64,000 bases of DNA, taken from contig CDLV01000006.1 in the NCBI GenBank assembly GCA_001244265.2, positions 1 through 64,000 of the forward strand, read 5' to 3'. Numbering within the stretch: the first letter of the stretch is position 1; every line of letters starts with the position of its first letter. A model generated the notes under the pieces. The model did no database searches and had not been told where the DNA came from. It worked only from the letters and a program-made list of their open reading frames with translations. The position numbers were made by a program, and so were the translations under genes. The DNA is from Microbotryum violaceum. Taxonomy: Eukaryota. Positions 1 to 54,880 of the stretch are shown here, piece after piece.

Positions 1-3000
1 ATCGCACAATGGACAGCGACCCCACCACGCCTTCGTCCCCAGGGACCCCAGCCCTCTTGCGTCTTCGATCAGCGATCAACTCGCTACCCTGCAGGCCCAG
101 ATCGCCGCCCTGCAGGCCTCGCAGCACCCTGCCGCCCGCCGTCGCAGCCCCTGCCGCCACCGCCTCGCAGCCCCTGCCGCCAGCCGCCTCTACCGCCGCT
201 GCCTCGCAGCCCACTGCCACTACCGCCACGCCACCACCGCATCAAAAGTCGTCTTTCCAAGCACGCTCGCCTAGATGGCTCCAAGTCATTCACAAACTGG
301 TTGCGCCAACTCCGGCTCACGCTTCCAAATCAGATTCGTGGTTACGTCCTTGATGGAGTCGTTCCGCCCGACTGTGGACGGACAGACCAGCTGGCCGCTC
401 GCGACGACGCCGCGCCGGGAAATTATTCGTCGGCTCGATCGACTTCCGCCGACGTCTCAGCAACCCTCGATGCCATCCCAAGCACGACCTGTCGGCGCCA
501 CGCATCTTCAACGCACTCAAGGCTCGTTTCGCACGAACGACGCCACTCGCACTCTCGAATTATTCGCCCGCCTTTGGGACTTTCGGAAGATGCCCGCCTC
601 GTCGAGGCCTATGACACCTGGCTGCGAGAATACATGGCCATTGCTCAAGAGATTCGCGACGCCAAGACATCACTGAACGACGTCCTCGCCACGCACATTC
701 TCGCCATGGTACCGTCCTGTCTAGACAGCTTCCGTCTAACGTTCACGGACGAGCAGCGCGCCAGCGCGAACTCCCGGAGCTCACGACTTTAACGGACCGT
801 ATCCGCGTTCAGCTCCGATCCGCCGGCTCTCGACCTCGCATTCGGCCATGCTCGCCGACGCCCCCTCTTGCCCGCCTGCCGCGCCCCGGCCACCGCCTGC
901 GAGACTGCACTTCACGTGCAAAGCATCCGCCCACCGCCCTTGCCGCCGCTGCCAAAAGCGAGGTCACTGGGCCCTCGACTGCAAGAACCGGGGTCAACAG
1001 ACACGTACCAGCGACGACACCAGGACGACTTGTCTTCTTCCACGGCTCACCGACCGAACGTCGGCTATTTCGCCTCCTGCCTGTTTGCCGCCCGCCCAAC
1101 TCCGACCGACGCCTTCGTTGTCGACTCGGGCGCGACGACTCACATGGTCGCCGACCGCCCCTGTTCACGACTTATCGTCAAACGGCACACACCAAGATTG
1201 GCGCGCATTGCCGGCGGTATCACGGCCATTGGTATGGGGGATGTAGCGTTTGTTGCCAACACCGGACACCCGATCACGTTGCGCGGCGTTCTGCACGCGC
1301 CGGCGCTTCACGTCAACCTTCTCTCCGTCTCTCGCCTTTGTGACACCGACCGCGTCCGACTCGCTTTCACCAGCGACAGCATCGACATCACCAAGGACGG
1401 CCAGGCCATCGCTCACGGTACACGGGTTAACGACGGTCTCTACCTCCTGGACGCGGATCACACCAAATGTCAGCAGCTTGCCTTTCTCTCACGCTCTGAG
1501 TCTACCGTGCCCCTACTTACCCTCCACCGCTGCCTCGGCCATCTTGCTCCATCCTCTATACAGAAGATGATCGCTGCGGGTTTGCTGGACGGGTTTGGGG
1601 CCGGGTACAGTGACAAAGACGTAGAAGAGTTTGTTTGCAATGCTTGCCTTGGTTCCAAAGGCCATCGTCTTCCTTTTCCCGACTCGGAGTCACATTCCCC
1701 CGAGAGACTTGGCCTCGTGCACAGCGATGTCCTGTCGTTCCCCACTCCGTCCTTGACCGGGAAACGCTATCTTGTCACCTTCCTTGACGACCACTCTCGC
1801 AAACTCTGGGCAAACGAACGCGCGTTTACGGATCCTTCGCACCGACACGGCGGCGAATACCGATCCAACGCGTTCACGGAGTTCTGCCAGTCCAGGGGCA
1901 TTCGTCGCCAATACTCCATTCCATACACGCCTCAGCAAAACGGTCGTGCCGAACGTGTCAACCTCTCCATCGTCGAGGGCGTCCTCGCCCTCCTTGCCGA
2001 CTCTCACCTGCGCGCGCCACCTTTTGGGACGAAGCGGCTGCATACTTCGTTTATTGCAAAACAGGTGCTCACACTCAGCTTTGGCCAAACAGAATCCACA
2101 ATTCGTTTGGAACGGCCAACGCACCACGACCACGCCCCTTCACCCGTTCGGCTGCGCGGCCTGGCTCACGGGCGCGCCGGACCTTCGCAGCAAGCTCGAC
2201 CCCAAGGCCGCGCGCGTGATTTTTACTGGTTACGACCTCGCCTCCAAGGCTTTCCGTTTCTTCGACATTCCACCAACAAGGTTGTGCTTGGCCGAAATGC
2301 CACCTTCCTCGACGACGACTTCCCCGGCCTACCAGTCAGCACGCCCGTCGATGCGGACGCGCGAACGCCAGTTCATCATTCCCGCCGACACGCACGCCCC
2401 GCGACACGCACGCCCCCGCCGACACGCCCGCCCCGCCGTCAAGATGAGGACCCACTAGTAAGGTCGGCGCACATGGACGTCTCATCCCCCCTTGATGATT
2501 CTGCCATGAGGCGCCGTTGACGTGGCCCCAGGGTACACTGGGGATCCTTACTTAATTCTACAGATACCAGCCCCTCGTCGTCTCCGTCGTTCGCCCCGTT
2601 TTCGTCTCCCGCCACGCTCGCCGTCGGCCGGACGTCCATCGATGACTCGGATGATCCGCTTGACCTCCTGAACTCCGACACCGCGGTTCGCCTCAACCTG
2701 ATGGACGTACATCGATCCGACGACGACACCTCGGTGACACCCACGCCCGCCGCTGCCGCCTGGCAGCCCCCCGATGACGACTCTCCTGATGAGATCGATT
2801 TCCTCTCTCGCCATCATCGCGCTTTCATCGCCACGGACGACGACGACCCCGCCCTCAAGCCATTGAACCGTCAAATCGATCACTAGCGATCCCCAGACCT
2901 GGCGTGAAGCGATGTCCAGCGACGAGCACGACCTCTGGGCTCAAGCTGCCTCAGACGAGTTCACCGCCATGCGTGACGATTTCAAGGTGTTCACCATCGA

Positions 3001-4925
3001 GCCCGCTCCTCAGTACCGCCGCGGCGCCACCATCGTCACCTCCAAATTCGTCTGGAAGACCAAGCGCGATGCACAGGGTGATATCACAGGGCGGAAGGCA
3101 CGCCTTGTTGCACAGGGAAATCGCCAGCGCGACGGCATCGACTTCTCGGAGACGTTCGCACCCGTCGCCGTTTCTCCTCCATTCGCTGCCTTCTCGCCCT
3201 TGCCGCTGCCAATGGCTACCACGTTCATCAGGCCGACATCGACAAGGCTTACCTTCACGGCGAGCTCGATCACGATATCTGGATGACGACGCCACGAGGC
3301 TTCGACTTCCTGGGCGACAAGGTTCTCCGGCTGCGACGCTCGATCTACGGTCTTAAGCAGGCCGGTCGCATCTGGAATCGCCACATCGACACATCACTTC
3401 GAAGTCTTGGGTACAAGGCAACGGGCACTGATCACTGCATTTACTCTCGCATTGATGATCAGAAGCAGCCCCATTATATCGCATTGTATGTCGACGATCT
3501 CCTCATTGTCAGCCCCGCCTCGACAAGATCGAGCGTTCATCTACGGCCTCGAACAACGATACGGCGTCAAACGGCTCGGCCCCGCAGAATACATCCTCGG
3601 CATCCAGATTCGACGCCTGGAAGACGGCTCCATTGCTCTATCCCAGGAGCGCTACATCATGGACGTGCTCGCCCGCTTCCACTTCGACACCACAACGCGC
3701 GGCGCTACGGTGCCAATGACGCCCGGCCTCTCGCTCACGCTGTACCGGTCAGGGAACGGAACGCATTCGGTCGTGGTACCTGCAAGCCATCGGCTCCCTC
3801 CTATACATTTCACTTGGCACTCGGCCCGACATTGCCTTCGCCGTCTCGTACCTGTCCCGGTTCGCCAACAACCCCGGCCGCCGCCATTGGATTGCCGTCA
3901 AACACGTCCTTCGCTACCTTCGCGCTACGTACCGCGATGAGCTACTCTACGCCTGTGGCCCGCCAAAATTACGGGTGTGGTTGGCTATTCTGATGCGAAC
4001 TGGGGTGCCTGCGTCGACACGTCCATCTCACAATGGGCTTCGTCTTTTACTTGGCCGGCTCCGCCGTCTCTTGGTCATCGAAGCGTCAGACTCGGGTAGC
4101 AGATTCCACCACTGATGCCGAATACCTCGCCTTGTCGCATGCTGGTAAGGAAGCGATTTACCTTACGCAACTCCTCTCCGAGCTCCACGTTCGCCCGGTC
4201 GATGCAGCCCACATTTTCACCGACAACGAGGCCGCCGCCGCCGTCGCTCACGACCCCGTTCGCACTTCGGGCACTCGACACATACGCCTCCGCGAGCACT
4301 TTGTCCGCGACATGGTCAACCAAGGCGAGATCTCTCTCTCACACGTCGGCACAGCGAACATGGTTGCAGACATATTCACCAAGGCGCTAGGTCCCAAGAT
4401 TTTCGGTGCACATTGCTATACTCTAGGTCTCCGGACGCGTCACCCACGGCTCAAGTCTACCTCGCGTTCGCGTGGGGGGGGGTGTGAAGAATCCACTCTC
4501 CGCTCGGCTCAGGACTTAGGCGCGCGGATCAAGCCGGGCGCATCGGCACAGGTCTTAGGCGCGCTGAGCGAGCCGGGCGCATCGGCAGAGGACTTAGGCG
4601 CGCGGAACGGGCCAGGCGCACCGGCTCAGGACTTAGGCGCGCGGGCGCAGGACTTAGGCGCGCGGAGCGAGCCTGGGACTTAGGCGCGCCGGCTCAGGTC
4701 TTAGGCGCGCGGAGCGCGCCTGGGACTTAAGCGCAGGGAACGAGCCTGGCCCAAGGGTCCCAGGCTGAGGACTTGAGGCGCGCGGCTCCCATACTGTTAG
4801 CTTCCTATTCATCACTCTTGGCTATAACTACATCGCTGACGTAGTAGAGTTGATCGAATAGGTATGTTGTAATATTCATCACTCTTGGCTATAACTACAT
4901 CGCTGACGTAGTAGAGTTGATCGAA
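1..4925 (+). mobile_element. Ty1/Copia LTR retrotransposon, family A, copy 1 (5' LTR outside window; many frameshifts)
   Basis: Domains run gag zinc knuckle ([14 protein letters not shown]), protease DSGAT, GAG-pre-integrase LHRCLGH, integrase ([13 protein letters not shown]), RT YVDD, RNase H (WSSKRQ, ADIFTK), which is the Copia order. Poly-G PPT at 4474-4482; LTR starts TGTGA at 4483. Confidence 0.95.
4483..4925 (+). repeat. Family A 3' LTR with GC-rich ~39-bp minisatellite and duplicated 3' end
   Basis: Matches LTRs at 5899-6243(-), 7826-8231, 12823-13226, 17579-17852, 22805-23078 and 26323-26588. Confidence 0.9.
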
Positions 4926-5898
4926 AAAAAATACCTTAGGTCCGAGAGCCTTAGTGAAAATGTCGGCCACCATGTCGCTGGTTCCAACGTGCGAGAGTGA
5001 GATGTCGCCCCGATTCACCATGTCCCGAACGAAGTGCTCGCGCAAGCGTATGTGTCGAGTGCCGGTGACGCGGACAGGGTCGCGGGCGACTGCCGCAGCG
5101 GCTTTGTTGTCAGTAAAGATGTGAGCCGGTGCAACGGGTTGGACATGAAGCTCTTCGAGTAGCTGACTGAGGTAAATCCCTTCCTTGCCAGCATGCGAGA
5201 GGGCGAGATACTCAGCGTCGGTGGTGGAATCGGCAACTCGAGATTGACGTTTGGATGACCAGGACACGGCGGAGCCGGCGATGTAGAAGACGTAGCCCAT
5301 GGTGGACACCGATGTATCGACACAGCGCCCCCAATTCGCGTCGGAGTAGCCTACCACACCCGTGATACATGTCTCGCCACGAGCATAGAGCAGTTCGTTG
5401 CGATACGTGGCTCGGAGATAGCGGAGGACGTGCTTGACCGCGATCCAATGACGACTGCCGGGGTTGTTGGCGAAGCGGGCCAGGTAGGAGACGGCGAAGG
5501 CGATGTCGGGGCGGGTGCCAAGTGAGATGTAGAGAAGCGAGCGATAGCCTGCAGATACCATGACTTGATCTGTTCGGTGCCCTGACCCGGGATGGCGGTG
5601 AGCGAAGGCCGGGAGTCATGGGGACTGTAGTGCCGCGAGTCGTGGTGTCAAAATGGAACCGAGCGAGCACGTCCATGATGTACCGTTCCTGGGACAGGGC
5701 GATAGAACCGTCTGCGAGCCGCCTGATCTGAATGCCGAGGATGTATTCTGCCGGGCCAAGGCGCTTGACTCCGTAACGTCGTTCGAGGCCCAAGATGACA
5801 CGTTCGATTTTGGCCAGGTCCGGGCTGATCATGAGGAGGTCGTCGACGTACAGCGCGATGTAGTGTGAGCGTTGACGATCATCGAGCCGAGAGTATAT
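4926..5898 (-). mobile_element. Copia family B RT/RNase H fragment
   Basis: ORFs 5212-5832 and 4812-5561 match the family B pol at 30629-31890 ([26 protein letters not shown]). Confidence 0.9.
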
Positions 5899-7825
<1,927 letters not shown>

Positions 7826-10800
7826 TGTGAGGAATCCACTCTCCGCTCGGTCCAGGACTTAGTGCGCGCGGAGCGAGCCGGCGCGCATCGCGCACGGACC
7901 TATGCGCGCGGAGCAAGCCTGGCGCCTCGGCTCGGGACTTAGGCGCGCGGAGCGAGCCGGGCGCATCAGGTCGGGACTTAGGCGCGCGGAGCGAGCCGGG
8001 CGAAATGGCTCGGGACTTAGGCGCGCGGAACGAGCCTGGCCTATTGGGTCAGCCCTGAGGCTCACTGGCTGAGAAATTGGGCGCGCGGCTCATTCACTGT
8101 TAGCTTCCTATTCATCACTCTTGGCTATAACTACATTGCTAACGTAGTAGAGTTGATCGAATAGGTATGTTGAAATGATTGATCACTCTTGGCTATAACT
8201 ACATTGCTGACGTAGTAGAGTTGATCGAATAGGTTATCAGCCCACGAGCTACCAGCCGCCACTCGCGTTTTTTTCCTCGAGCCTCAGCCACTCGAGCCGC
8301 ACACGTCCATCACACATCGCACGATGGACAGCTCCCCCAACACGCCCTCGCCCACAGGGACTCCAGCCCCCTCGCATCTTCGATCACGATCAAATCGCCA
8401 CTCTACAGGCCAGCTCGCCGCTCTGCAGGCTTCACAGCCCCCTGCCGCCGCCGCCTCCAGCCCACTGCCGCCGCCGTCGTCGCCAACCCGGCCACGGTCG
8501 CCACCGCGTCCAAAGTCGTGTTTCCAAACACGCTCGTCTCGATGGACCCAAGTCGTTTACGAACTGGTTACGACAACTTCGTCTCGCGCTTCCCAACCAA
8601 CTTCGTGCGTACGTTCTTGACAGCGTCGCCCCCGCTACGTGGACGGCCGATCAGCTTGCCGCCCGCGACGACACCGCCGCGGAAATCATCGTTGGCTCCA
8701 TCGACTCCGCCGACGTCTCGGCGACGCTCGACGCCATTCCGAGCGACGATCTCTCGGCCCCACGCATCTTCGCCGCCCTCAAGGCTCGTTTCGCACCGGA
8801 CGACGCTACCCGCACTCTTGAGTTGTTTGCCCGCCTTTGGGATTCAGAAAGATGCCCGCCTCCGTCGACGCATACGACACCTGGCTACGCGAATACATGT
8901 CCATTGCACAAGAAATTCGCGACACCAAAACATCGCTCAACGACGTACTCGCCACCCACGTGCTCGCCATGGTTCCGTCGTGTCTCGACAGCTTCCGCCT
9001 CACGTTCACGGACGAGCAACGCAACCAACGCGACCTTCCCGAGCTGACGACGCTGACGGACCGCATTCGCATACAACTTCGTTCGGCGGGGCTCTCCACC
9101 TCACATTCGGCCATGATTGCCACCACCTCCCTTGCCCCGCCTGCCACGCCCCGGCCACCGCCTGCGCGACTGCACCTCACGCGCTCAGTACCCCCTGCCG
9201 CCCCTGCCGTCGCTGCAACAAGAAGGGTCACTGGGCCCTCGACTGCAAACCACGAGGCGGCCAACAACGAACCGGCGACGACAACCAGTCCGGCATGCCC
9301 TCATCTGCAGTTCACCAACCGAATGTCGGTTATTTCGCCTCCGGCCTGTTCGCTCGCCGGCAACTGCCGACTGACGCCTTCGTCGTCGACTCGGGTGCCA
9401 CGACACACATGGTAGCGATCGCTCTCTCTTCACGGCTTATCGCAAACGGCACACACCAAGATTGGAGGCATAGCCGGCGGGATCACAGCCATTGGTATGG
9501 GAGACGTCGCTTCGTTGCCAAGACCGGACATCGATCACGCTGCGTGGAGTTCTGCACACGCCGGGCCTTCACGTCAACCTCCTCTCCGTCTCTCGCCTCT
9601 GCGACACCGACCGCGTTCGACTCGCCTTCACCAGCGACGGTATCGACATCGCCAAGGACGGCCAGGCCATCGCTCATGGTACCAGGGTTAACGACGGGCT
9701 CTACCTTTTGGATGCGGATCACTCCAGATGTCAGCAGCTTGCCTTGCTCTCACGTTCCGAGTCCCCCGTGCCCCTGCTTCCCTCCACCGCTGCCTCGGCC
9801 ATCTTGCCCCATCCTCTATACAGAAGATGATTGCCGCAGGTTTGCTACACGGGTTTGGGGCCGGGTACAGTGACAAAGACGTAGAGGAGTTTGTTTGCAA
9901 TGCTTGCCTTGGTTCCAAAGGTCACCGTCTCCCTTTTCCCGACTCGGAGTCGCATTCCCCCGAGAGACTTGGCCTTGTGCACAGCGATGTCCTGTCGTTC
10001 CCCACTCCGTCCTTGACCGGAAAGCGCTACCTTGTGACATTCCTTGACGATCACTCTCGCAAACTCTGGGCATACGCGATCGATCCCAAAAGCGACGTCT
10101 TCCCGACCTTCCAGACTTGGCTCGCTGAAGTGGAGTTACAGACGGACGCACGTTTAAGGATCCTTCGCACCGACAACGCGGCGAGTACCGATCCAACGCA
10201 TTTACGGAGTTCTGCAAGTCCAGGGGCATTCGTCGCCAATACTCTATTCCCTACACACCTCAGCAAAACGGTCGTGCCGAACGTGTCAACCTCTCCATCG
10301 TCGAGGGCGTCCTCGCCCTCCTTGCTGACTCTCATCTGCCGGCCACCTTCTGGGATGAAGCGGCTGCGTACTTCGTTTATTGCAAAAACAGGTGCTCACA
10401 CTCAGCTTTGGCCAAACAGACCCCGAATTAGCTTGGGACGGCCAACGCACCACGGCCACCGCCCTCCACCCGTTCGGCTGCGCGGCCTGGCTCACGGTCG
10501 CGCCGGACCTTCGCAGCAAGCTCGACCCCAAGGCCACGCGCGTGATTTCACCGGTTACGACCTAGCCTCCAAGGCCTTCCGTTTCTTCGACCATTCCGCC
10601 AACAAGATTGTACTTGGCCGAAATGCCACCTTCCTCGACGACGATTTCCCCGGCCTCCCAGCCAACACGCCAGTCGATGCGGACAACACCGAACGCGAGT
10701 TCACCATCCCCGCCGACACGTGCGTCCCCACCAGCACGCCCGCCCCGCCAGCACGCCCGCCCCGCCAGCACCCCGCCCCCGCCGTCAAGACCAGGACCCC

Positions 10801-13226
10801 ACTAGTAAGGTCGGCGCACATGGACGTCTCATCCTCTATTGATGATTCTACCATGAGCGCCGTTGACGTGGCCCCAGGGTACACTGGCGGATCCTTACTT
10901 AATTCTACAGACACCAGTCTTTCGTCGTCTCCGTCGCTCCCCCCGTTTTCGTCTCCCGCCACGTCCTCGGCCGGGGGACCGTCCATCGATGACTCGGATG
11001 ACCCGCTTGACCTTCTCAACTCCAACACCGCGGTTCGTACCTCAACCGATGGACGTACATCGGTCCGGACGACACCGGTGACAACCACACCCGCCGTGCC
11101 TCGCCCTCTGATGACGACTCACCTGACGAGATCGACTTCCTCTCTCGCCATCACCGCGCCTTTATCGCCACAGACGACGACGATCCCGCCCTCGAAGCCA
11201 TTGAACCCGTAAAATCAATCACTAGCGATCCTCAGACCTGGCGCGAAGCGATGTCCAGCGACGAGCACGACCTCTGGGCTCAAGCTGCTGCCAACGAGTT
11301 CACAGCCATGCGCAACGATTTCAAGGTGTTCACCATCAAGCCTCGCTCCTCGGTGCCGCCGGGCGCCACCATTGTCACCTCCAAATTCGTCTGGAAGACC
11401 AAGCGAAATGCACGCGGTGATATCACAGGGCGGAAGGCACGCCTTGTAGCACAGGGTAACCGTCAGCGCGATGGCATCGACTTCTCGGAGACTTTCGCAC
11501 CGTCGCTCGGTTCTCGTCCATTCGCTGCCTCCTCGCTCTTGCCGCTGCCTATGGCTATCACGTTCATCAGGCCGACATCGACAAGGCTTATCTGCACGGC
11601 GAGCTCGATCACGATATCTGGATGACGACGCCACGGGGTTTCGACTTCCCGAGCGACAAGGTTCTCCGGCTGCGGCGCTCGATCTACGGTCTTAAGCAGG
11701 CCGGTCGCATCTGGAATCGTCACATTGACACATCGCTCAGAAGTCTGGGTACAGGGCAACGGGCACTGATCACTGCATTTACTCTCGCATTGATGATCAG
11801 CAGCAAACCCACTACATCGCCTTGTATGTCGACGATCTCCTCATTGTCAGCCCGCCCTAGACGAAATCGAACGTGTCATCTCAGGCCTCGAACGGCGATA
11901 CGGCGTCAAACGACTTGGCCCGCGGAATACATCCTCGGCATCCAAATCCGCCGCCTGGAAGACGGTTCCATTGCTCTTTCCCAGGAGCGCTACATCATGG
12001 ACGTGCTCGCCCGGTTTCATTTCGACACCACAACCGAGGTGCTACGGTGCCAATGACGCCCGGCCTCTCACTCACGGCAGTCCCGGGTCAGGGAACGGAA
12101 CGCATTCGGTCGTGGTACCTACAAGCCATTGGCTCTCTCCTATACATTTCCCTTGGCACTCGCCCCGACATAGCCTTCGCCGTCTCGTATCTGTCCCGGT
12201 TTGCCAACAACCCCGGCCGCCGCCATTGGATTGCCGTCAAACACGTCCTACGCTACCTTCGCGCTACGTACCGCGATGAACTACTCTATGCCAGCGGTTC
12301 ACCAAAATTACAGGTGTGGTTGGCTATTCTGATGCGAACTGGGGTGCCTGCGTCGACACGTCCATCTCCACGATGGGTTTCGTATTTTACTTGGCCGGCT
12401 CCGCCGTCTCTTGGTCATCGAAGCGTCAGACTCGGGTAGCAGACTCCACCACCGATGCCGAATACCTCGCCTTGTCGCACGCTGGTAAGGAAGCGATTTA
12501 CCTTACACAACTCCTCTCCGAGCTCCATGTTCGTCCAATCGAGGCAGCTCACATTTTCACGACAACGAGGCCGCCGCCGCCGTCGCTCACGACCCCGTTC
12601 GCACTTCTGGCACTCGACACATACGCCTCCGCGAACACTTTGTCCGCGACATGGTAAATCGGGGTGATATCTCCCTCTCACACGTTGGCACAGCAAACAT
12701 GGTTGCAGACGTATTCACCAAAGCGCTTGGCCCCAAGATTTTCGGTACACATTGCTATGCTCTAGGCCTCCGGACGCGACACCCACGGATCAAGTCTACC
12801 TCGCATTCGCGTGGGGGGGGGGTGTGAGGAATCCACTCTCCGCTTGGTCCAGGACTTAGGCGCGCGGAGCGAGCCGGGCGCATCGCGCACGGACCTATGC
12901 GCGCGGAGCGAGCCTGGCGCCTCGGCTCGGGACTTAGGCGCGCGGAGCGAGCCGGGCGCATCAGGTCGGGACTTAGGCGCGCGGAGCGAGCCGGGCGAAA
13001 TGGCTCGGGACTTAGGCGCGCGGAACGAGCCTGGCCTATTGGGTCAGCCCTGAGGCTCACTGGCTGAGAAATTGGGCGCGCGGCTCATTCACTGTTAGCT
13101 TCCTATTCATCACTCTTGGCTATAACTACATTGCTGACGTAGTAGAGTTGATCGAATAGGTATGTTGAAATGATTCATCACTCTTGGCTATAACTACATT
13201 GCTGACGTAGTAGAGTTGATCGAATA
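7826..13226 (+). mobile_element. Full-length Copia family A element with two near-identical LTRs (7826-8231, 12823-13226)
   Basis: LTR-PBS-gag-PR-IN-RT-RH-PPT-LTR. Flanks (TTGTG / CACCA) are not a TSD, suggesting recombination with another copy. Confidence 0.95.
8232..8254 (+). promoter_or_regulatory. Primer binding site, half-tRNAiMet (hemivirus) type
   Basis: GGTTATCAGCCC directly follows the LTR and resembles the copia/Ty5-type GGTTATGRGCCC. Also present at 17853, 23079 and 14861-14872(-). Confidence 0.85.
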
Positions 13227-15449
13227 CACCAAATGTAGGGCGAGGCATTTGCGCTACATCGACGTGGAGGAGATCCAGACGGCCAGAGGCGATGGACTTG
13301 GACCGGGCAAAGGGGAGGGCATGTGCTTTGGAAGCGAGACAAGCATTGCAGTAAAAATCCCGGAGCTCCTGATCCTTATACACCCAATCCACCCAGTAAC
13401 CAAGCCTTTCTGCACAACGTTTTTGATTTGCGCAACGGGCAAGTGCGCGAGGCGACGGTGCAGAGTCAGCAAGGACACTTTGGTAGGGATGGCGAGGAGG
13501 GCTTTGGGCGTACAGGGTGTAGGTCAAGTGCCAAGGCGTACAGGTTGTTCCCGATGGCTTGAGCGGTAGCAACGACGGCACCCGAGGGACGGGCAATGCT
13601 TGCACAACGAGATGCGAAGGAGACGCGGTAGCCAAGTTGATCCAACTGGAAGACGGACAGCAGGTTGCATGGGAGATCCGGTACCAGGAGGACATTGGAC
13701 ACGGTGATGGGACCCGTTGAAGTCTGGATGCAAATGGTGCCGCAGCCGGTGGAAGGGAGGGAGCCGGCGACGCCTCCAACTCGTGGGCCTGCGACCGTGC
13801 GAAGCTCGGAAAAAAGGCCCCTGTCGTTCGTCATATGGCGATTAGCGCCCGAGTCAAGAAGCCAAGCCGATTTGCGAAATGGCGAAGGTGTTGCGAGGAG
13901 ACAGGCCGTGAACGACACAGAGTTGGGTGTGTCCACTGCGGCTGGTGACGCGACTGGCTGGGAGGCCTTCTTCTCGGCGGTGCGACGAGCTTGGTAGGCG
14001 GCGGCCCAGGCGGTGTCGGGGCATTCCCGGAGCCAGTGCAACTTGCGACAAGACGGATTTGGGCACGGCCTTGAACAGCCGTGGCGGGCCTGCGGGGTGG
14101 CGACGGCGGCGGCGGCAACAGGAGTATCGACGGGGCGGGCTTTGACATCGCGGTAAAGGCGCGTGAAGATCTCGGTGGCGGAGGGCATCGCAGTGGAATC
14201 GCCCTGGTCAGCAACGAAGGTGGTGCGCCAGGCGTCGAAGGACGAAGGAAGGCGAGCAAGCAAGTGCGAGGCGAAAAGGGCGTTCACGGTGACCTGCGAG
14301 TCCTGCAGCAGCCGGGCGTCGTTTTCGAAACTGTCGCGGAATTGCAGGAACAGGTCGGGAGTGACGGGCACAGGGTCGGAGCTGAAGAGGCGTTGGATGA
14401 CCGGTAGCAGATCAACAGCAGACACGGTGCCGTAGCGTTCGCGAAGTGCCTGCCAGACCTTGGGTGCTGCGAGCAATTCGTCGAGGTAAGGTGACAGGCC
14501 GGGAGGACAGTTTGCGAATCGACGGAGGCGCAAATGGAGGAGCAGGCGTAGTGGTCCCAGAGAGGGACATACAAAGCAGGCCAAGACTCGAGTGGTACGC
14601 CCGTGTTGAGGTAACGGACAACGCCGGAGGGCAGGCGTGAACGGATGGCGAGGACCCAGTCTCGGTAGCCGGACGAGTTGCGAAGCAGCTTGGTCGTAGC
14701 GAAGGCCGCAGAGTGGTGGGGCGGCGCAAGGGCGGCGCATCGGGCGTGGGCTCGCGGAGCTTGGCTTCAGGCGCGGAGGCGCCGGCGTCGGACATGTTGC
14801 GTAGGGTGAAAAAATAGAGCGAAGGGCGGGCACGGAGGTGGCCGCACTGGTAGCTCGGTTGGGCTAATAACCTGTGATGTTGTCACGCCTGCTCAAGCGG
14901 TGGTAAGTCTCTGATCGAAGGACCAAGGGAGACCAGACCAAGAAGTTGCTTTGTTACACACCTGCTCAAGCACTACAGTAAGTTACCACATCTAGAGGGG
15001 TGAAAGATGATAGGAAGAGTAGTGCTCACCTGCTCAAGCGGTGGTAAGTCTCTGATCAAAGGACCAAGGGAGACCAGACCAAGAAGTTGCTTTGTTACAC
15101 ACCTGCTCAAGCACTACAGTAAGTTACCACATCTAGAGGGGTGAAAGATGATAGGAAGAGTAGTGCTCACCTGCTCAAGCGGTGGTAAGTCTCTGATCGA
15201 AGGACCAAGGGAAACCAGACCAAGAAGTTGCTTGAGCAGGAGAGAAACCAGAGTGGGGCCATTTGGCTGGGCCCAAGTCAGCCCAGCCAAAGTCAGGCGC
15301 ACGGACCTGGCCCAGGTGCAGAGACCAGGCCCAGAGTGGGAGAGCTAAGGTGGTGAAAAGTAGGCCAAAAGTGATCAAAACGAAGAGAGGAGGATGTTGA
15401 GGTAGGTACAAGATACAAGAAGGACATGAAGGAGATATTTGATCTCACA
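13227..15449 (-). mobile_element. Copia family C 5' half (LTR, PBS, gag, protease, start of integrase)
   Basis: CPNPSCRKLHWLREC knuckle, WLLDSGA protease, LHRRLAH, CNACLASK, LLHVDV. PBS GGTTATTAGCCC at 14861-14872. Confidence 0.92.
14873..15449 (-). repeat. Family C 5' LTR (TG..CA) containing a 141-bp tandem repeat (~2.4 copies)
   Basis: TGTGAGATC...ACATCACA on the minus strand; repeat spans 14889-15231. Confidence 0.88.
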
Positions 15450-18400
15450 TGTCATTCCCGCCGACGCGCCAGCACCTGACACCGCCGACACGCACGGCCC
15501 CGCCGCCACGCCCGCCCCCGCCGTCAAGACGAGGACCCCACTAGTAAGGTCGGCGCACATGGACGTCTCATCCCCTCTTGATGATTCTGCCATGAGCGCC
15601 GTTGACGTGGCCCCAGGGTACACTGGCGGATCCTTACTTAATTCTACAGATACCAGCCCCTCGTTGTCTCCGTCGCTCGCCCCGATTTCGTCTCCCGCCA
15701 CGTCCTCAGGGGGTAACCGTCCATCGAGGACTCGGATGATCCGCTTGACCTTCTGCACTCCGACACCGCGGTTCGCCTCCGCCTGATGGACGTACATCAA
15801 TCCAACGACGACACCCTGGTCACACCCACACCCGCCGTTGGCCCCGGGCAGCCCTCCGACGACGACTCCCCTGATGAGATCGATTTCCTCTCTCGTCATC
15901 ACCGCGCCTTCATCGCCACCGACGACGACGACCCCACCTCGAAGCCATTGAGCCGGTCAAATCGATCACTAGCGACCCTCAGACCTGGCGTGAAGTGATG
16001 TCCAGCGACGAGCACAACCTCTGGGCTCAAGCCGCCTCCAACGAGTTCACCGCCATGCGCGACGATTTCAAGGTGTTCACCATCGAGCCTCGTTCCTCGG
16101 TACCACCGGGCGCCACCATTGTCACCTCCAAATTCGTCTGGAAGACCAAGCGCAATGCACAGGGTGATATCACAGGGCGGAAGGCACGCCTTGTCGCGCA
16201 GGGTAACTGCCAGCGCGACGGCATTGACTTCTCGGAGACGTTCGCACCCGTCGCCCGTTTCTCCTCCATTCGCTGCCTCCTTGCCCTTGCTGCTGCCAAC
16301 GGCTAGGACGTTCATCAGGCTGACATCAACAAGGCTTACCTTCACGGCGAGCTCGATCACGACATCTGGATGACGACGCCACAAGGTTTCGACTTCCCGA
16401 GCGACCAGGTTCTCCGGCTGCGGCGCTCGATCTACGGTCTTAAGCAGGCCGGTCGCATCTGGAATCGCCACATTGACACATCACTCAGGAGTCTTGGGTA
16501 CACGGCAACGGGCACTGATCACTGCATTTACTCTCGCATTGATGATCAGAAGCAGCCCCATTATATCGCATTATATGTCGACGATCTCCTCATTGTCAGC
16601 CCCGCCCTCGACGAGATTGAGCGTGTCATCTCCGGCCTCGAACAGCGATACGGCGTCAAACGACTCGGCCCTGCAGAATACATCCTCGGCATCCAGATTC
16701 GACGCCTGGAAGACGGCTCCATTGCTTTATCTCAGGAGCGCTAGATCATGGACGTGCTCGCCCGCTTTCACTTTGACACCACAACACGCGGCGCTACGGT
16801 GCCAATGACGCCCGGCCTCTCGCTCACGGCAGTACCGGGTCAGGGAACGGAACGCATTCGGTCGTGGTACCTGCAAGCCATCGTCTCCCTCCTATACATT
16901 TCACTCGGCACTCGCCCCAACATTGCCTTCGCCGTCTCGTACTTGTCCCGGTTCGCCAACAACCCCGGCCGCCGCCATTGGGTCACCGTCAAACATGTCC
17001 TTTGCTACCTTCGCGCTACGTACCGTGATGAGCTACTCTACGCCTGCGGTCCAACCAAGATTACAGGGTGGTTGGCTACTCCGATGCAAACTGGGGTGCC
17101 TGCGTTGACACGTCAATCTCCACAATGGGCTTCGTCTTTTACTTGGCCGGCTCCGCCGTCTCTTGGTCATCGAAGCGTCAGACTCGGGTAGCAGATTCCA
17201 CCACTGATGCCGAATACCTCGCCTTGTTGCATGCTGGTAAGGAAGCGATTTACCTTACACAACTCCTCTCCGAGCTCCACGTTTGCCCGGTCGATGCGGC
17301 TCACATTTTCACGGACAACGAGGCCGCGGCCGCCGTTGCTCACGACCCCGTTCACACCTCTGGCACCCGACACATACGCCTCCGCGAGCACTTTGTCCTC
17401 GACATGGTCCACCAAGGCAATATCTCCCTCTCACACGTCGGCACAGCAAACATGGTTGCGGACATATTCACCAAGGTGCTAGGTCCCAAGATTTTTGGTG
17501 TACATTGCTATGTTCTAGGCCTCCGGACGCGTCACCCACGGCTCAAGTCTACCTTGCGTTCGCGTCGGGGGGGGGGGGTGTGAGGAATCCACTCTCCGCT
17601 CGGCTCAGGACTTAGGCGCGCGGAGCGAGCCAGGCACATTGGCCCAGGGCTAGGCGCGCAGAGCGAGCCGGAGCGAGTCGGGCGCATCGGCTCAGGACTT
17701 AGGCGCGCGGAGCGAGCCAGGCGCATTGGCCCAGGGCTAGGCGCGCGGAGCGAGCCTGGGGAACTTGGGGCGCGCAGCTCTCACACTGTTAGCTTCCTAT
17801 TCATCACTCTTGGCTAGAACTACATCGCTGACGTAGTAAAGTTGATCGAATAGGTTATAAGCCCAACGAGCTACCAGCCCGCTGCTCGCTCGCATTTTTC
17901 CTCGAGCCCAGCCACTTGAGCCGCCCACGTCCATCGCACCATCGCACAATGGACAGTCGCGACCCCACCACGCCTTCGTCCCCCAGGGACCCCAGCCCTC
18001 TTGCGTCTTCGATCAGCAATCAACTCGCTACCCTGCAGGCCCAGCTCGCCGCTCTGCAGGCCTCGCAGCCCCCTGCCGGCCCCGCCTCTACTGCCGCTGC
18101 CTTGCAGCCCACTGCCGCCGCCGCCGCCACCACCACCGCATCAAAAGTCGTCTTTCCCAAGCACACTCGCCTAGACGGCTCCAAGTCGTTCACGAACTGG
18201 TTACGCCAGCTCCGGCTCACGCTCCCGAATCAGGTTCGTGGTTACGTCCTTGATGGCATCGTTCCCCCGACGTGGACGGCCGACCAGCTGGCCGCTCGTG
18301 ACGACGCCGCGCGGGAAATTATCGTCGGCTCGATCGACTCCGCCGACGTCTCAGTAACCCTCGACGCCATCCCAAGCGACGACCTGTCGGCGCCACGCAT

Positions 18401-19470
18401 CTTTGCCGCACTCAAGGCTTGTTTCGCACCAAACGACGCCACTCGCACCCTCGAATTATTCGCCCGCCTTTGGGACTTTCGGAAGATGCCTGCCTCGGTC
18501 GAGGCCTATGACACCTGGCTGCGCAAATATATGGCCATTGCTCAAGAGATTCGCGACGCCAAGACATCGCTGAACAACGTCCTTGCCACACACATCCTCG
18601 CCATGGTACCGTCCTGCCTAGACAGCTTCCGCCTAACGTTCACGGACGAGCAGCGCGCCCAGCGCAACCTCCCGGAGCTCACGACCTTAACGGACCGTAT
18701 CCGCGTTCAGCTCCGATCCGCCAGCCTCTCGGCTTCGCATTTGGCCATGCTCGCCGACGCCCCCTCTTGCCCCGCCTGCCACGCCCCGGCCACCGCCTGC
18801 GCGACTGCACTTCACGTGCAAAGCATCCGCCCACCGGCCCCTGCCGCCGCTGCCAAAAGCGAGGTCACTGGGCCCTCGACTGCAAGAACCAGGGCCAACA
18901 GACACGTACCAGCAACGGCACCCAGGACAATTTGTCTTCTGCCACGGCTCACCGACCAAACGTCGGATATTTCGCCTCCTGCCTATTTGCCCGCCGCCAA
19001 CTCCCGACCAACGCCTTCGTAGTCGACTCGGGCGCCACGACTCACATGGTCGCCGACCGCTCCCTGTTCACGACTTATCGTCCAACGGCACACACCAAGA
19101 TTGGCGGCATTGCCGGCGGTATCACGGCCATTGGTATGGGGGATGTACCGTTTGTTGCCAACACCGGACACCCGATCACGTTGCGCGGCGTTCTGCATGC
19201 GCCGGGCCTTCACGTCAACCTTCTCTCCGTCTCTCGCCTTTGTGACACCGACCGCGTTCGACTTGCCTTCACCAGCGACAGCATCGCCATCACCAAGGAC
19301 GGCCAGGCCATCGCTCACGGTACACGGGTTAACGACGGTCTCTACCTCCTGGACGCGGACCACACCAAATGTCAGCAGCTTGCCTTTCTCTCACGCTCCG
19401 AGTCTACCGTGCCCCTACTTACCCTCCACCGCTGCCTTGGCCACCTTGCTCCATCCTCTATACAGAAGAT

Positions 19471-19810
19471 TGTGACAAGTCCACTCTCAGCTCGGCAGAG
19501 GCGCCTCGGTCGTTGCGCGCACCGCTAGCCCGCCCCCCTGCGCTGGGGACTTAGACGCGCGCGACTGACTCAGCGGGCCAGCGCCGGGTGGATCCGTGCG
19601 GGTGCCCACTAGGCCGCCCCTTGCGGTGGGGACTTAGGCGCGCGCGACTGCCTTAGCGCCGCGCGCCTGCCTTAGCGCGCTAGCAACTTCACCCGCGACT
19701 GGGCCTATCTCAGCGCGGGTCCCCTTTCTATTTCTTAGCTTCCCTCTCACCACTTCTGTTCAACAATCGACCTCTCCTGACAGTAGTGGTGATCGTCTCA
19801 TAGTCTCATA
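19471..19810 (+). repeat. Solo LTR of Copia family B inserted in family A integrase
   Basis: TG...TA termini with 5-bp TSD AAGAT; similar to LTRs at 27798 and 31723. Confidence 0.93.
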
Positions 19811-26588: not shown

Positions 26589-32025
<5,437 letters not shown>

Positions 32026-32041
32026 TATTTCAGCATACCTA

Positions 32042-33451
<1,410 letters not shown>

Positions 33452-41557: not shown

Positions 41558-41563
41558 CGACTG

Positions 41564-47800: not shown

Positions 47801-48823
47801 TCTTTGTTTTTGGATGTTGGATCGGCAAGTAGGGTCAATCATTTGTGGAGGCTATGTGAAGTGCCCCTGTTTTTTTTTTATCTCCTCTCTTTCCCCCTTT
47901 TCCATTCTCTTTTCCCATCTGTCTCGCTCGGATGTTGACTATGCTTCAGCCACACTCCCCTTTTCCCTCCAAGCCGCTTGATGGATCTTGTTGAATGGAA
48001 TGGTCGTTACGGCATGGATCGGGAAGAAGGCTCGTTCGTTTTATTGGATCGTTTTCTTGCCCAACTTCCAATGGCTCAACAGCCAGCACTCGAGACTCAG
48101 CCAAGGAGGGCCATCGGGCGTTGTCGGGGTGACGAGTAGCTGGGGCTTGGCTGCGGCCTGTTAGTCTTTGGGGACCTCTATCCCTGGCTTTGACCCCTTT
48201 CTTCGTCTCTCGGGTGTGTCCCCCCTCCTCCCCCTCCTTTCCCCTTGTTTTAGTATTTTCCTTTTGTAGAAATCGAACAGCGATGTGCTGAACGAGTTGG
48301 CGGCAGTGGCAAGCCAATGAGTTCGTAATCAAGTAGAGATTGCAATAAAGGAGTTCTTCACACACCTGAACGAGTTGGCGGCAGTGGCAAGCCAATGAGT
48401 TCGTAATCAAGTGGAGAAGAAGAAGGAAAGACGCGATTGGACCGCGCGGCTAATACAAATAGAGACGCGCGCTAGGCAGATTTAAGGCAAGAGTAATCTA
48501 CCTCAACACCTTTCTCGGTGTTCCCATTTGTGACTTTCTGTATACTCTCTTCCTTCTTTCTCTAGGCGCTCTTGCCTGGTTTCGAGTATCTTCGCTCCCG
48601 TGCTTGGGACGTGAAGCGGCAGCAGTACTCACCGCCCGTTGGAGTCCGCGTTAGGTGCTCGGTGGGCTTTGATCTGCGCAGCGCTCTTTGCGCGCAGGGG
48701 TTTGATTTTCACCCAGCTGCTTGTCGTCGTTGCTTTATTACCTCTTTTAGCTCTTTTCGTAGCAATTCCAGCCAACCCGAAGGATTGTAATTTATGAGCC
48801 CAGTTAAACAAAAACAAAAAAAA
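41888..48823 (+). mobile_element. Near full-length L1-type non-LTR retrotransposon (LINE-b): ORF1 41940-43616, ORF2 43613-47644, both frameshifted; A-rich tail to 48823
   Basis: ORF1 begins MPDPPG and has a CAVCNRAGHQWGAC knuckle. ORF2 has TFNV, LLQEH, GDLND, SRIDY, SDH, FADD and CLFC..ETVSHYFFGC. ATGA stop/start overlap. Confidence 0.92.
48265..48508 (-). repeat. Solo LTR (family D) inserted in the LINE-b 3' UTR
   Basis: TG..CA termini, 5-bp TSD CCTTT, internal 47-bp direct repeat. Orientation inferred. Confidence 0.88.
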
Positions 48824-53870: not shown

Positions 53871-54880
53871 CAGGTGGTCATGCTCAACATGGTTTTGTAT
53901 GAACATGATCTTGAACCCCATAAATTCGTAATTAACTCCAGCCTGAACAAGTCGACGGGAAAGACACTGTTTGAAGTGGTGCTGGGCTTCAATCCTGAGC
54001 TGACCCCGATTGCTCCACGGGACGGCTCAATGTGGAAGCACTGCGTGCAGCAGTGCTCCAGAACGATAGACAGGATCAAACAATAGTAATTCACTAGAAC
54101 CTTGGGTCAGTGAGCTAGCATACTACACATATGAGAAAAGGGGCACCCACCTAGAACCTCAGGTCAGTGAGCTGGCAAAAGCCAAGGGAGGTTCTAGGCG
54201 CGCGCAAGCTATTCAACTAAGCCAAAAGTTCTATTGCCTTCCATTGTACCTTGGGCAAAGGCCTCAGGCCTTGCACAATGGTGTTGCAGGCGGTGGAAGC
54301 GGTTGTGGACGATCGAGAAACAGCAGTGGTGGAAGCAAGGGACAACTTAGCAATTGCAAAGATCCAACAAGCCGAACAGAGCAACAGGAGTGAACCCCGG
54401 CGACAAGACGCACAATGTTTTCCATGTATCCAAGCTGCGGCAATGGGTAGCAAACGATGGGGAGGACTTCCCAGGCCGCCATGCAGCCAAACCAGCGGCA
54501 ATCATAGTGCAGGGAAACGAAGAATGGGAAGTGGAACGCATTGTGGATGAGGGAAAGGGAAAAGGAAGAAGTTCTTGGTTAAATGGAAGGGATGGGCGGA
54601 CAGCAACAACACTTGGGAGCCTAGATTGCATCTGGAAGAGACGGCAGCTTTAGACCGGTGGGAAAACGAGAACCGGGAAGGGGGGTAAGGACAGGGAAGA
54701 GAGGGTGTAAGGATAGGAGAGGGTAAGGCCCGTGCGCCTGACCCTTAGGAGAAGAGACGTGCGCCTGGGCACTCTTAGTCTCTCCTCAGCGACTAACGTA
54801 GAGTGTCCAGGTGAGCCCAAGTGTATCAGAAGGCATTGTCATAGTAATGACTAACGTAGTGTCCAGTGTCAATCCTACAT
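53871..54880 (+). mobile_element. Chromovirus integrase C-terminus with chromodomain, PPT and probable LTR start (~54706)
   Basis: [27 protein letters not shown], then a frameshifted [13 protein letters not shown]. Purine tract precedes TGTAAG. Confidence 0.8.
54033..54275 (-). repeat. Gypsy solo LTR
   Basis: TG..CA termini, 5-bp TSD CAATG; homologous to 33266-33451. Confidence 0.88.

What the first reader, a model, noticed from the sequence alone, without database searches (positions are those of the whole stretch)
8099..8243. LTR 3' ends built from spliceosomal-intron-like repeat units whose excision regenerates the LTR end/PBS junction (family A)
Seen: the LTR end is duplicated. The extra unit (8165-8232, 68 nt) starts GTATGT, has GCTGAC about 20 nt from its end and finishes TAG, where TA is the LTR terminus and G is the first PBS base. 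Removing it gives GAATAG|GTTAT, exactly the junction in the single-unit LTRs at 17579-17852 and 22805-23078. The preceding unit (8099-8164, 66 nt) also reads GTTAGC..GCTAAC..TAG. Two-unit LTRs start at 4483, 5899(-), 7826 and 12823; one-unit LTRs at 17579, 22805 and 26323. Established: GTATGT / CTRAY / YAG and 60-80 nt are typical fungal intron signals, and retroelements normally lose introns. Inference: U5 is an intron, and the duplication lets the RNA be spliced (for stability or export in an intron-dependent host) while keeping an att end beside the PBS. One-unit LTRs may be cDNAs of spliced RNA. I know of no description of this arrangement.
Basis: partly seen in the sequence, partly recalled or inferred. 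Interest (0 to 1): 0.92.

Follow-up and report, generated by a model that had tools for sequence, protein, structure and literature searches.

The report
Intron-like units inside retrotransposon LTR ends
Several unrelated retrotransposon families in this fungal DNA carry, near the end of their terminal repeats, a short inserted unit built like an intron; if it is really spliced this would be an unusual way for such elements to keep an intron, but no RNA evidence could be obtained.

Summary
The LTR end at 8099-8232 is a 66-nt unit followed by a 68-nt unit. The second unit is 13 new bases starting GTATGT plus a 55-nt copy of the first (53 of 55 identical). It holds CTGAC 22 nt before a TAG whose G is the first PBS base. 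The elements are degenerate Ty1/copia copies.

The same build occurs on the sense strand in the 3' third of six LTR families in the window: copia A, B and C, gypsy E and F, and solo LTR D. In each, a copy of the unit's own 3' end comes first, then a new stretch starting GTRNGY, then the stretch ending YAG. These joints hold 13 of the window's 28 AG|GTRNGY motifs. A motif-blind repeat scan found the build in 6 of 6 LTR 3'-region repeats and in 0 of 5 other repeats.

My best reading (about 0.5) is that these are short leader introns born by duplication. Splicing itself is not shown. The public runs gave only contigs and no junction. Reverse-transcriptase slippage could also make the one-unit LTRs. 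The claims that unit 1 is an intron, and that the one-unit LTRs here are cDNAs of spliced RNA, are not supported.

The parts
7826..8231 (+). 5' LTR of copia element E3 (family A), two-unit form
   Evidence: Starts TGTGAGG as the other LTRs do after the G-run PPT. It is 99.0% identical to its 3' LTR at 12823-13226.
8099..8164 (+). Unit 1: the ancestral LTR 3' end, predicted hairpin; on the intron reading this is the upstream exon end
   Evidence: Fold -17.9 kcal/mol, z -2.6, with 4 of 200 shuffles folding as well.
8165..8232 (+). Unit 2: candidate 68-nt intron (GTATGT ... CTGAC ... TAG)
   Evidence: GC is 0.37 against 0.63 for the rest of the LTR.
8165..8177 (+). New 13-nt stretch carrying the donor-like hexamer; it has no source elsewhere in the window
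   Evidence: Found only at the unit joints of families A and C.
8207..8211 (+). CTGAC branch-like motif, with its A at 8210, 22 nt before the closing G
   Evidence: The motif is also present in one-unit LTRs and in family C.
8232..8255 (+). Primer binding site of the half-tRNA (anticodon-arm) kind; its first G completes the TAG
   Evidence: The same block is found in family B at 14872-14848(-). The assignment to this kind of PBS is inferred.
12823..13226 (+). 3' LTR of E3, two units; unit 2 starts at 13160
4483..4927 (+). 3' LTR of element E1, two units; unit 2 starts at 4862
5899..6244 (-). 3' LTR of reverse-oriented element E2, two units; unit 2 starts at 5966
17579..17852 (+). One-unit family A LTR followed by a PBS. 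Its identical twin is at 22805-23078, and a third one-unit LTR is at 26323-26588.
27798..28179 (+). Family C (copia) LTR, two-unit form; candidate 69-nt intron at 28111-28179 (GTATGC ... CTGAC ... TAG)
   Evidence: The two unit cores are identical at 54 of 55 positions.
31724..32076 (+). Second family C LTR, rearranged: the unit end and the new stretch are present as an inverted copy
19471..19810 (+). One-unit solo LTR related to family C (82%), with a 5-bp target duplication and an 8-nt doubling of its very end. Its twin is at 24698-25037.
14873..15449 (-). Family B (copia) LTR. It holds four units at 14889-15170: 68 nt GTGAGC..CAG alternating with 73 nt GTGTGT..CAG. The last unit ends 16 nt before the LTR end.
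54033..54275 (-). Family D solo LTR (TG..CA, 5-bp target duplication). Candidate 57-nt intron at 54094-54150 (GTGGGT ... CTGAC ... TAG). The sense strand is inferred.
33266..33451 (-). Second family D copy, lacking exactly the 57 nt
54706..54879 (+). Family E: 3' LTR of a chromovirus (gypsy). Candidate 56-nt intron at 54811-54866 (GTGAGC ... CTAAC ... CAG).
   Evidence: An integrase tail and a chromodomain-like ORF ending at 54688 lie just upstream.
48265..48508 (-). Family F: LTR behind the minus-strand gypsy pol. Candidate 78-nt intron at 48288-48365 (GTGTGT ... CAG).
   Evidence: The two copies of the repeated stretch are identical at 51 of 52 positions.

Best explanation
The extra 68-nt unit is a short spliceosomal-type intron inside the transcribed 3' part (R/U5) of the LTR. 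It arose when the last 55 nt of the LTR were copied again behind a short new stretch. The new stretch supplies the donor (GTATGT). The copied stretch supplies the branch motif (CTGAC) and the acceptor. In family A the acceptor is completed by the first base of the PBS, so the intron is whole only in the 5' LTR.

Removing the unit gives back the ancestral leader, with the same LTR end next to the PBS. Unspliced RNA, when reverse transcribed, hands the unit on to both LTRs. Spliced RNA, or a jump of reverse transcriptase between the two copies, gives one-unit LTRs. The same kind of event happened, or was kept, in at least five independent lineages in this genome: A with C, then B, D, E and F.

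Shown here: the anatomy, its orientation, its recurrence, and its departure from chance. Inferred: that transcription starts upstream of the unit, that the unit is spliced, and any benefit. A benefit could be removal of the upstream ATGs that the new stretch brings in, or intron-aided expression as reported for Penelope.
For: 1. Anatomy of unit 2.
2. The same build lies on the sense strand in six LTR families. The donors are GTATGT, GTATGC, GTGAGC, GTGTGT, GTGGGT, GTGAGC and GTGTGT, each preceded by AG. G stands at +5 in 7 of 7 joint types. The units are 56-78 nt long and end YAG. CTRAY lies 12-23 nt before the end in 4 of 6 families.
3. The strand agrees with the element's own direction where this is known from PPT, PBS or pol, which is the case for A, B, C, E and F.
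4. 13 of the 28 AG|GTRNGY motifs in the window (both strands) sit at these joints, leaving 15 in 128,000 strand positions elsewhere.
5. A repeat scan blind to the motif (spacing 45-110 nt) gave 11 distinct loci. The 6 in the 3' third of an LTR all have the build; the 5 others do not (two U3 arrays, a 95-nt repeat and two 11-15-nt matches).
6. Between families A and C the donor-bearing stretch is identical at 11 of 12 columns, while the rest of the unit is identical at 38 of 61. CTGAC and the closing ATAG are also kept.
7. The units of A, B and D share no significant sequence (p 0.2-0.8), so the likeness lies in the signals, not in descent.
8. The units are poorer in G+C than the rest of their LTR in 6 of 6 families.
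9. Established knowledge. A duplication that holds AGGT can make a working intron (PMC3265369 and PMC4974935, search listing and abstract starts). In Neurospora a foreign transcript was spliced efficiently at sites present by chance (PMC4408805, abstract start). A retroelement can keep a leader intron that it needs for expression (Penelope, PMC2377424, passages).
Against: 1. No RNA evidence. No run on record as RNA held the stretch.
2. The two-unit state was passed on through lineages whose LTRs now differ by 10-17%. Unspliced RNA must therefore be a working template, and splicing cannot be near complete.
3. AGs at 5, 8 and 10 nt after the branch A could be used instead of the AG at 22 nt. They lie in a predicted stem.
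4. Families B and F have no CTRAY.
5. Units 1 and 2 share lineage-specific changes. Two columns change in both units of one element, and a third column is homoplastic. This fits repeated jumps of reverse transcriptase between the copies, and such jumps alone would also give one-unit LTRs.
6. The unit is a predicted hairpin next to the PBS. Hairpins both stall reverse transcriptase and may be kept for priming, so part of the conservation has another possible cause.
7. CTGAC is also kept in one-unit LTRs.
8. The one-unit LTRs of A and D do not look like fresh spliced derivatives.
9. Ascertainment. Only F and the 6-of-6 count come from a motif-blind scan.
Confidence: 0.5

Rival explanations
1. 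Plain tandem duplication of the U5 hairpin by reverse-transcriptase template switching or replication slippage, never spliced. On this reading the splice-like letters have no function, and unit number goes up and down by misaligned jumps.
For: The unit is a predicted hairpin beside the PBS in A, B and C (z -2.6, -4.5 and -3.9). Direct repeats of 19-55 nt flank every case. Units 1 and 2 evolve in concert. The related solo LTR at 19471-19810 has an 8-nt doubling of its very end. U3 holds 39-nt arrays of variable copy number. Family A's joint repeats the first three PBS bases, so the event happened in a PBS context. Reverse transcriptase is known to delete sequences between repeats by template switching (PMC3678115 and PMC3187697, listing and abstract starts).
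Against: It does not explain why the new stretch starts GTRNGY right after AG in 7 of 7 joint types, always on the sense strand. It does not explain why that stretch is the best-kept part between A and C. The new stretches are not copies of neighbouring sequence, so this is not simple slippage.
Confidence: 0.27
2. The donor-like motif works without removal of the unit. It would act as a U1 snRNP binding site, or as a G/U-rich element just downstream of the poly(A) site at the R/U5 border, controlling where the LTR transcript ends.
For: The motif lies in the 3' third of the LTR, where the R/U5 border is expected, after a YA dinucleotide. Control of LTR polyadenylation by a nearby donor is known in retroviruses (recalled, not read here).
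Against: The motif would be present downstream of the poly(A) site in both LTRs, so it could not tell them apart. It does not explain the branch motif at 12-23 nt before a YAG in four families, nor the copied stretch. Several of the motifs are not G/U-rich beyond five bases.
Confidence: 0.08
3. The build is a mutational footprint. Reverse transcriptase left the element's RNA, copied another RNA up to its 5' end, and that RNA was an excised intron starting GU. It then jumped back and copied the LTR end a second time. The units look like introns because their first part is a piece of one, whether or not they are spliced now.
For: It explains three features at once: a new stretch of foreign sequence, its start with a donor consensus, and the second copy of the stretch already made. 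Reverse transcriptases pause at lariat branch points (PMC5399748, abstract start).
Against: It does not explain why the copied stretch always ends AG and mostly holds a branch motif. No source intron could be looked for, because no genome is held. The A and C stretches are only 13-14 nt long.
Confidence: 0.08
4. Duplication of a promoter or enhancer module. In family A the unit holds a TATA-like word and a TGACGTA (CRE-like) word.
For: Both words are in the family A unit. Enhancer doublings are common in LTRs (recalled).
Against: Family C's homologous unit has no TATA-like word. In a one-unit LTR the TATA-like word lies about 35 nt from the LTR end, which would leave no room for R. This reading says nothing about the joints.
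Confidence: 0.04

Closest known systems
Intron gain by tandem genomic duplication (Rogers model; Hellsten et al. 2011, PMC3265369; potato RdRp case, PMC4974935)
   Same: A duplicated stretch with AG|GT at the joint gives a donor from one copy and an acceptor from the other, and splicing restores the original RNA.
   Different: Here the site is a non-coding LTR leader of retroelements. Only the 3' part of the unit is a copy, and the 5' part (13 to about 57 nt) is new sequence. The build recurs in six families. No RNA proof exists. I saw only the listing and abstract starts of both papers.
Leader intron of Penelope-like elements (PMC2377424)
   Same: A retroelement keeps a 75-bp intron 46 bp downstream of its start site, inside its terminal repeat region. 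Both spliced and unspliced RNAs exist, and removing the intron abolishes reporter expression (passages).
   Different: Penelope is not an LTR retrotransposon, replicates differently and has no PBS. No copy of the exon end inside the intron is described in the passages I read.
Splice donors in retroviral leaders, and spliced subgenomic RNAs of copia-type elements
   Same: Unspliced RNA serves as the genome and spliced RNA as a message.
   Different: Those donors pair with distant acceptors to make subgenomic messages. Here a complete 56-78-nt unit lies inside the LTR, upstream of the PBS.
Poorly spliced introns of transposon transcripts that trigger RNAi in Cryptococcus (SCANR; review PMC5851062)
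   Same: A basidiomycete yeast whose transposon-derived transcripts hold introns, with splicing efficiency deciding their fate (passages).
   Different: The passages give no position or build for those introns. The host here is unknown and richer in G+C. The primary paper is not held.
Deletion and duplication of direct repeats by reverse-transcriptase template switching (PMC3678115, PMC3187697)
   Same: Direct repeats within the copied RNA, variable unit number, and concerted change of the copies.
   Different: That process puts no constraint on the letters at the joint. I saw only the listing and abstract starts.
Half-tRNA priming in copia and Ty5 (review PMC5371799)
   Same: The PBS beside the LTR matches an internal, anticodon-arm part of a tRNA rather than its 3' end (passages; the match here is inferred from its form).
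   Different: The tRNA of this host could not be read. The PBS copies differ at the position opposite the first anticodon base.

Membership tests
U2-type spliceosomal intron (short fungal kind) | Donor GT with consensus GTRNGY | tested here: met
   7 of 7 joint types in six families meet it. Unit 1 of family A (GTTAGC) does not.
U2-type spliceosomal intron (short fungal kind) | Branch motif CTRAY 10-40 nt before the acceptor | tested here: inconclusive
   Present at 12-23 nt in A, C, D and E; absent in B and F. In family A three nearer AGs compete.
U2-type spliceosomal intron (short fungal kind) | Acceptor YAG | tested here: met
   In family A it is met only in the 5' LTR, where the PBS gives the G.
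U2-type spliceosomal intron (short fungal kind) | Lies inside a transcript, downstream of the start site | not testable with these tools
   The runs were kept as contigs, which show no starts.
U2-type spliceosomal intron (short fungal kind) | Spliced junction or lariat seen in RNA | tested here: inconclusive
   No joint at 8164^8233 or 8098^8165 among the 15 joints listed, with 5 more not shown. The RNA label of three of the runs is a guess, and all four runs were contigs.
U2-type spliceosomal intron (short fungal kind) | Length within the host's range | tested here: inconclusive
   Only one host intron could be read: 85 nt, GTCAGT..CAG, joining two frames in phase. The units are 56-78 nt.
Ty1/copia LTR retrotransposon (families A, B, C) | Gene order and domains: gag knuckle, protease barrel, integrase before RVT_2 | tested here: met
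   Pfam hits Pol_BBD, zf-CCHC, gag_pre-integrs, rve, SH3_retrovirus and RVT_2. All copies are broken by stops or frameshifts.
Ty1/copia LTR retrotransposon (families A, B, C) | LTR pair, polypurine tract, PBS next to the 5' LTR | tested here: met
Ty1/copia LTR retrotransposon (families A, B, C) | TG..CA termini and 5-bp target duplication | tested here: inconclusive
   Family A ends TA, not CA, and element E3 shows no target duplication. Family B ends CA. The solo LTR at 19471-19810 has a 5-bp duplication.
Intron born by tandem duplication (Rogers model) | Intron end is a copy of the upstream exon end, with AG|GT at the joint | tested here: met
   The copies are 55, 55, 52, 23, about 20 and 11-13 nt long in A, C, F, D, E and B.
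Intron born by tandem duplication (Rogers model) | The whole intron derives from the duplicated stretch | tested here: not met
   The 5' part is new sequence with no source in the window and is unlike the sequence before unit 1.
Tandem repeat made by reverse-transcriptase slippage | Copy number varies among copies and the copies change in concert | tested here: met
Tandem repeat made by reverse-transcriptase slippage | Joint sequence free of constraint | tested here: not met

The most novel reading that the evidence does not exclude
LTR retrotransposons of both superfamilies in this fungus keep a heritable intron inside R/U5. On this reading the copy of the intron's 3' end placed in the upstream exon is not a leftover but part of the mechanism. 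It gives spliced and unspliced RNA the same sequence next to the LTR end and PBS. It also lets a nascent minus strand begun on spliced RNA pair with the intron-end copy of an unspliced partner or of the 3' R. That pairing would restore the intron and keep the two copies alike. Such elements could be spliced for expression, or be read by a splicing-coupled silencing system, without losing the intron.
Probability: 0.22. Interest if true: 0.85.

Novelty: new variant of a known kind. Interest (0 to 1): 0.64.

Why it matters
Retroelements copy themselves through RNA, so they are expected to shed introns. Two known exceptions (recalled, not read here) are retroviral donors that feed subgenomic messages and internal introns in some plant elements; a third, the Penelope leader intron, I read in passages. 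A complete mini-intron inside the LTR, upstream of the PBS, arising repeatedly by the same kind of duplication in copia and gypsy families of one genome, would be a new arrangement. It would offer a natural series of very young introns whose birth can be read base by base. It would also give a direct handle on how transposon RNAs meet the spliceosome in fungi, whether for expression or for splicing-coupled silencing. If the units prove unspliced, the finding still points to a joint-specific process in reverse transcription that needs explaining.

Tried and rejected
- Whole genome: none is held, so no genome-wide survey and no host intron set were possible.
- Sequencing runs: no RNA holder was listed.
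- Laying X19, X20 and X24 (RNA only by guess) and X6 (DNA): no joint at 8164^8233 or 8098^8165 among the 15 joints listed, with 5 not shown. All four runs were contigs. One-unit LTRs in the genome would in any case give the same letters as a spliced joint.
- Metagenome scan with the unit-end pattern: 5 stretches, all unrelated chance matches on inspection.
- Viral contigs searched with the integrase: no relative.
- Rfam on 4400-18200: 0 matches at E up to 1.
- Common descent of the units of A, B, D and C: only weak local matches (p about 0.02 for a 13-nt word shared by A and B, and for the start of A and C); the rest were not significant.
- A source for the new stretch: found only at the joints themselves.
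- Read-through into the tRNA primer as the origin of the stretch: only the first three bases agree with the PBS.
- TATA box in unit 1 driving a start in unit 2: dropped, because family C has no such word.
- My early view that family C is a one-unit outgroup was wrong. Its copy at 27798-28179 has two units, and the copy at 31724 is rearranged.
- The other motif-scan hit at 52408(+) has no flanking repeat and counts as background.
- Literature: searches (57 papers; 26 papers), read as listings only, showed no description of an intron inside the LTR or U5 of an LTR retrotransposon. This is not proof that none exists. Supplements were not consulted.
Full report
WHAT IS THERE. The first 32 kb of the window is a nest of degenerate Ty1/copia elements. 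The ORF pieces carry Pol_BBD, zinc knuckle, gag_pre-integrs, rve, SH3_retrovirus and RVT_2 domains, and every copy is broken. The rest of the window is also mostly transposons. It holds LINE-like and gypsy-like reverse transcriptases and a Pif1-like piece. There is one recognisable host gene, at 62046-63423(-). Family A LTRs start TGTGAGG right after a run of G (the polypurine tract) and end in ..ATA. In 5' LTRs a 24-nt PBS follows. The PBS has the form expected for priming by an internal, anticodon-arm part of a tRNA. This is known for copia and Ty5 (PMC5371799, passages). The assignment here is inferred.

Unit 2 is 13 new bases followed by a 55-nt copy of the end of unit 1, identical at 53 of 55 positions. 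Four LTRs have two units (4483, 5899 on the minus strand, 7826, 12823). Three have one (17579, 22805, 26323). The first two of these three are the same sequence inside a 5.2-kb tandem repeat. An independent DNA run also holds a two-unit joint (table 5c). The closing G of the TAG comes from the PBS, so the three 3'-LTR copies of the unit end TAA, TAC or AAA. The branch A lies at 8210, 22 nt before that G, but AGs also lie 5, 8 and 10 nt after it.

FIRST READING, LATER REVISED. Several facts pointed to an ordinary duplication made by reverse transcriptase:
- The unit folds as a hairpin beside the PBS (z -2.6). Families B and C have their own hairpins there (z -4.5 and -3.9).
- Units 1 and 2 share element-specific changes at two columns, and a third column is homoplastic. 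The copies are therefore kept alike by some ongoing exchange.
- U3 carries a 39-nt array of variable length.
- The one-unit family A LTRs also lack a roughly 44-nt segment further upstream and differ at one unit position. Unit number therefore follows lineage.
- CTGAC is present in one-unit LTRs too.
- Any tandem duplication gives back the single-copy junction when one period is removed.

WHAT CHANGED THE PICTURE. A scan for AG|GTRNGY followed by CTRAY and YAG within 50-90 nt gave only 8 hits in both strands of the window. Four were family A's unit 2. Of the other four, three turned out on inspection to be the same kind of object in other LTR families:
- 28111(+) lies in a second copy of the sister copia family C (27798-28179). 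This LTR has two units whose cores are identical at 54 of 55 positions. The new stretch between them is homologous to that of family A.
- 54150(-) lies in a solo LTR, family D (54033-54275), which has TG..CA ends and a 5-bp target duplication. A second copy at 33266-33451 lacks exactly 57 nt.
- 54811(+) lies in the 3' LTR (54706-54879) of a chromovirus, family E. Its integrase tail and chromodomain-like ORF end at 54688.
- The fourth hit, 52408(+), has no flanking repeat and counts as background.

A scan for direct repeats that took no account of splice motifs then added family F (48265-48508, minus strand), behind the minus-strand gypsy pol. Family B (14873-15449, minus strand) has four units of 68 and 73 nt, each starting GTGAGC or GTGTGT and ending CAG.

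THE COMMON BUILD. In all six families the order on the sense strand is the same. First comes a stretch ending YAG. Next comes a new stretch of 13 to about 57 nt that starts GTRNGY. Last comes a second copy of the first stretch, 11 to 55 nt long. The units are 56-78 nt and lie 0-61 nt from the LTR's 3' end. G stands at +5 and AG at -2 and -1 in 7 of 7 joint types. CTRAY lies 12-23 nt before the end in A, C, D and E, and is absent in B and F. The sense strand is known from PPT, PBS or pol for A, B, C, E and F. For D it is inferred.

IS IT CHANCE? The motif AG|GTRNGY occurs 28 times in the window on both strands, and 13 of these are at the joints. Elsewhere the rate is 15 per 128,000 strand positions. 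The chance of finding the motif at the first base of the new stretch, on the right strand, at one locus is therefore about 1 in 10,000. In the motif-blind scan there are 11 distinct repeat loci with spacing 45-110 nt. The 6 in the 3' third of an LTR all show the build. The 5 others show none; they are two U3 arrays, a 95-nt repeat at 35877 and two matches of 11-15 nt. Ascertainment must be stated. F and the 6-of-6 count are the unbiased part. The units of A, B and D share no significant sequence, so what recurs is the signals. Between A and C the donor-bearing stretch is identical at 11 of 12 columns, and the remainder at 38 of 61.

BEST EXPLANATION AND ITS LIMITS. I read the units as short leader introns born by a duplication of the LTR's 3' stretch behind a new piece that supplies a donor. 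This is a variant of intron birth by tandem duplication (PMC3265369 and PMC4974935, listing and abstract starts). Splicing would give back the ancestral leader. Unspliced RNA would pass the unit on. In family A the intron is whole only in the 5' LTR. Fungal spliceosomes can act on very little information (PMC4408805, abstract start). A retroelement that keeps and needs a leader intron is known in Penelope (PMC2377424, passages).

No part of this is shown at the RNA level. No run on record as RNA held the stretch. The runs laid were contigs, and no junction was among the 15 joints listed. A spliced joint would in any case be letter-identical to a one-unit LTR. Against efficient splicing, the two-unit state survived in lineages whose LTRs now differ by 10-17%. 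The concerted change of the two copies is most simply explained by jumps of reverse transcriptase between them (PMC3678115 and PMC3187697, abstract starts). Such jumps would also produce one-unit LTRs without any splicing. In family D the one-unit copy agrees with the intron-end copy rather than the exon-end copy at 2 of 2 diagnostic positions. It is therefore not a spliced derivative of the present two-unit copy.

The core idea gains real support from the recurrence: the extra unit is an intron whose removal restores the LTR end and PBS junction. It remains unproven. The idea that unit 1 is also an intron fails, because GTTAGC is a poor donor and the sister family reads CT there. The idea that the one-unit LTRs in this window are cDNAs of spliced RNA is not supported. 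In searches (listings only) I found no description of this arrangement.

VERDICT. This is a real, non-random and recurrent feature. It is most likely an intron-like device in LTR leaders (about 0.5). The main rival is unspliced duplication by reverse transcriptase (about 0.27). It is a new variant of known kinds: retroelement introns, and intron birth by duplication. The decisive data are RNA reads linked to two-unit markers, mapped start sites and a genome-wide survey.

Noticed in passing
8232-8255(+), 17853-17877(+), 14872-14848(-): The PBS blocks of element E3, element E4 and family B are nearly the same but differ at the position opposite the first anticodon base (C, A and T; never G). A modified wobble base in the primer tRNA could cause this. 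The tRNA itself could not be read.
   Followed up: partly
8110-8164 and 8178-8232, with the matching units at 4806-4927, 5899-6021(-) and 13105-13226: Units 1 and 2 of one LTR share changes that differ between elements (columns 26 and 27 of the core), and column 3 is homoplastic. This is concerted evolution of the two copies within an LTR.
   Followed up: partly
15500-26588: Family A elements stand head to tail and share LTRs (internal part, LTR, internal part, LTR ...). One 5.2-kb period is repeated at 100% identity.
   Followed up: no
1-4482 compared with 8233-12822 and 17853-26322: Element E1 is a mosaic. Its gag-protease part is about 97% like E4 and 74% like E3, while its 3' end is closer to E3. 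Recombination between subfamilies is likely.
   Followed up: no
32010-32066: The family C LTR at 31724 ends in a palindrome. A 16-nt stretch of the unit is followed by the reverse complement of the new stretch and of the unit end, as a snap-back copy would give.
   Followed up: partly
19795-19815: The solo LTR at 19471-19810 has its last 8 nt doubled, and is flanked by a 5-bp target duplication.
   Followed up: partly
7855-8040 and the matching parts of the other family A LTRs: A 39-nt G+C-rich array in U3 with 3.5 to about 5 copies. A related word (TAGGCGCGCG-like) recurs in the U3 of families C, D, E and F.
   Followed up: no
62568-62652(-): The only host intron that could be read: 85 nt, GTCAGT..CAG. 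It joins the two ORFs of a Pinin/SDK/memA-domain gene (62046-63423) in phase.
   Followed up: partly
35726-35807(-) and 35871-36051: A tRNA-Glu gene lies right beside the start of a LINE-like ORF that begins with a 95-nt tandem repeat.
   Followed up: no
8137 and the whole stretch 7700-12800: Differences between copies and between runs are mostly transitions (table 1). The family A change at core column 27 is TCG to TTG. This may fit a repeat-directed or methylation-linked C-to-T process.
   Followed up: no
41341-41778: A 223-nt tandem repeat, 2.0 copies at 98% identity, of unknown nature. It has no AGGT on either strand.
   Followed up: no
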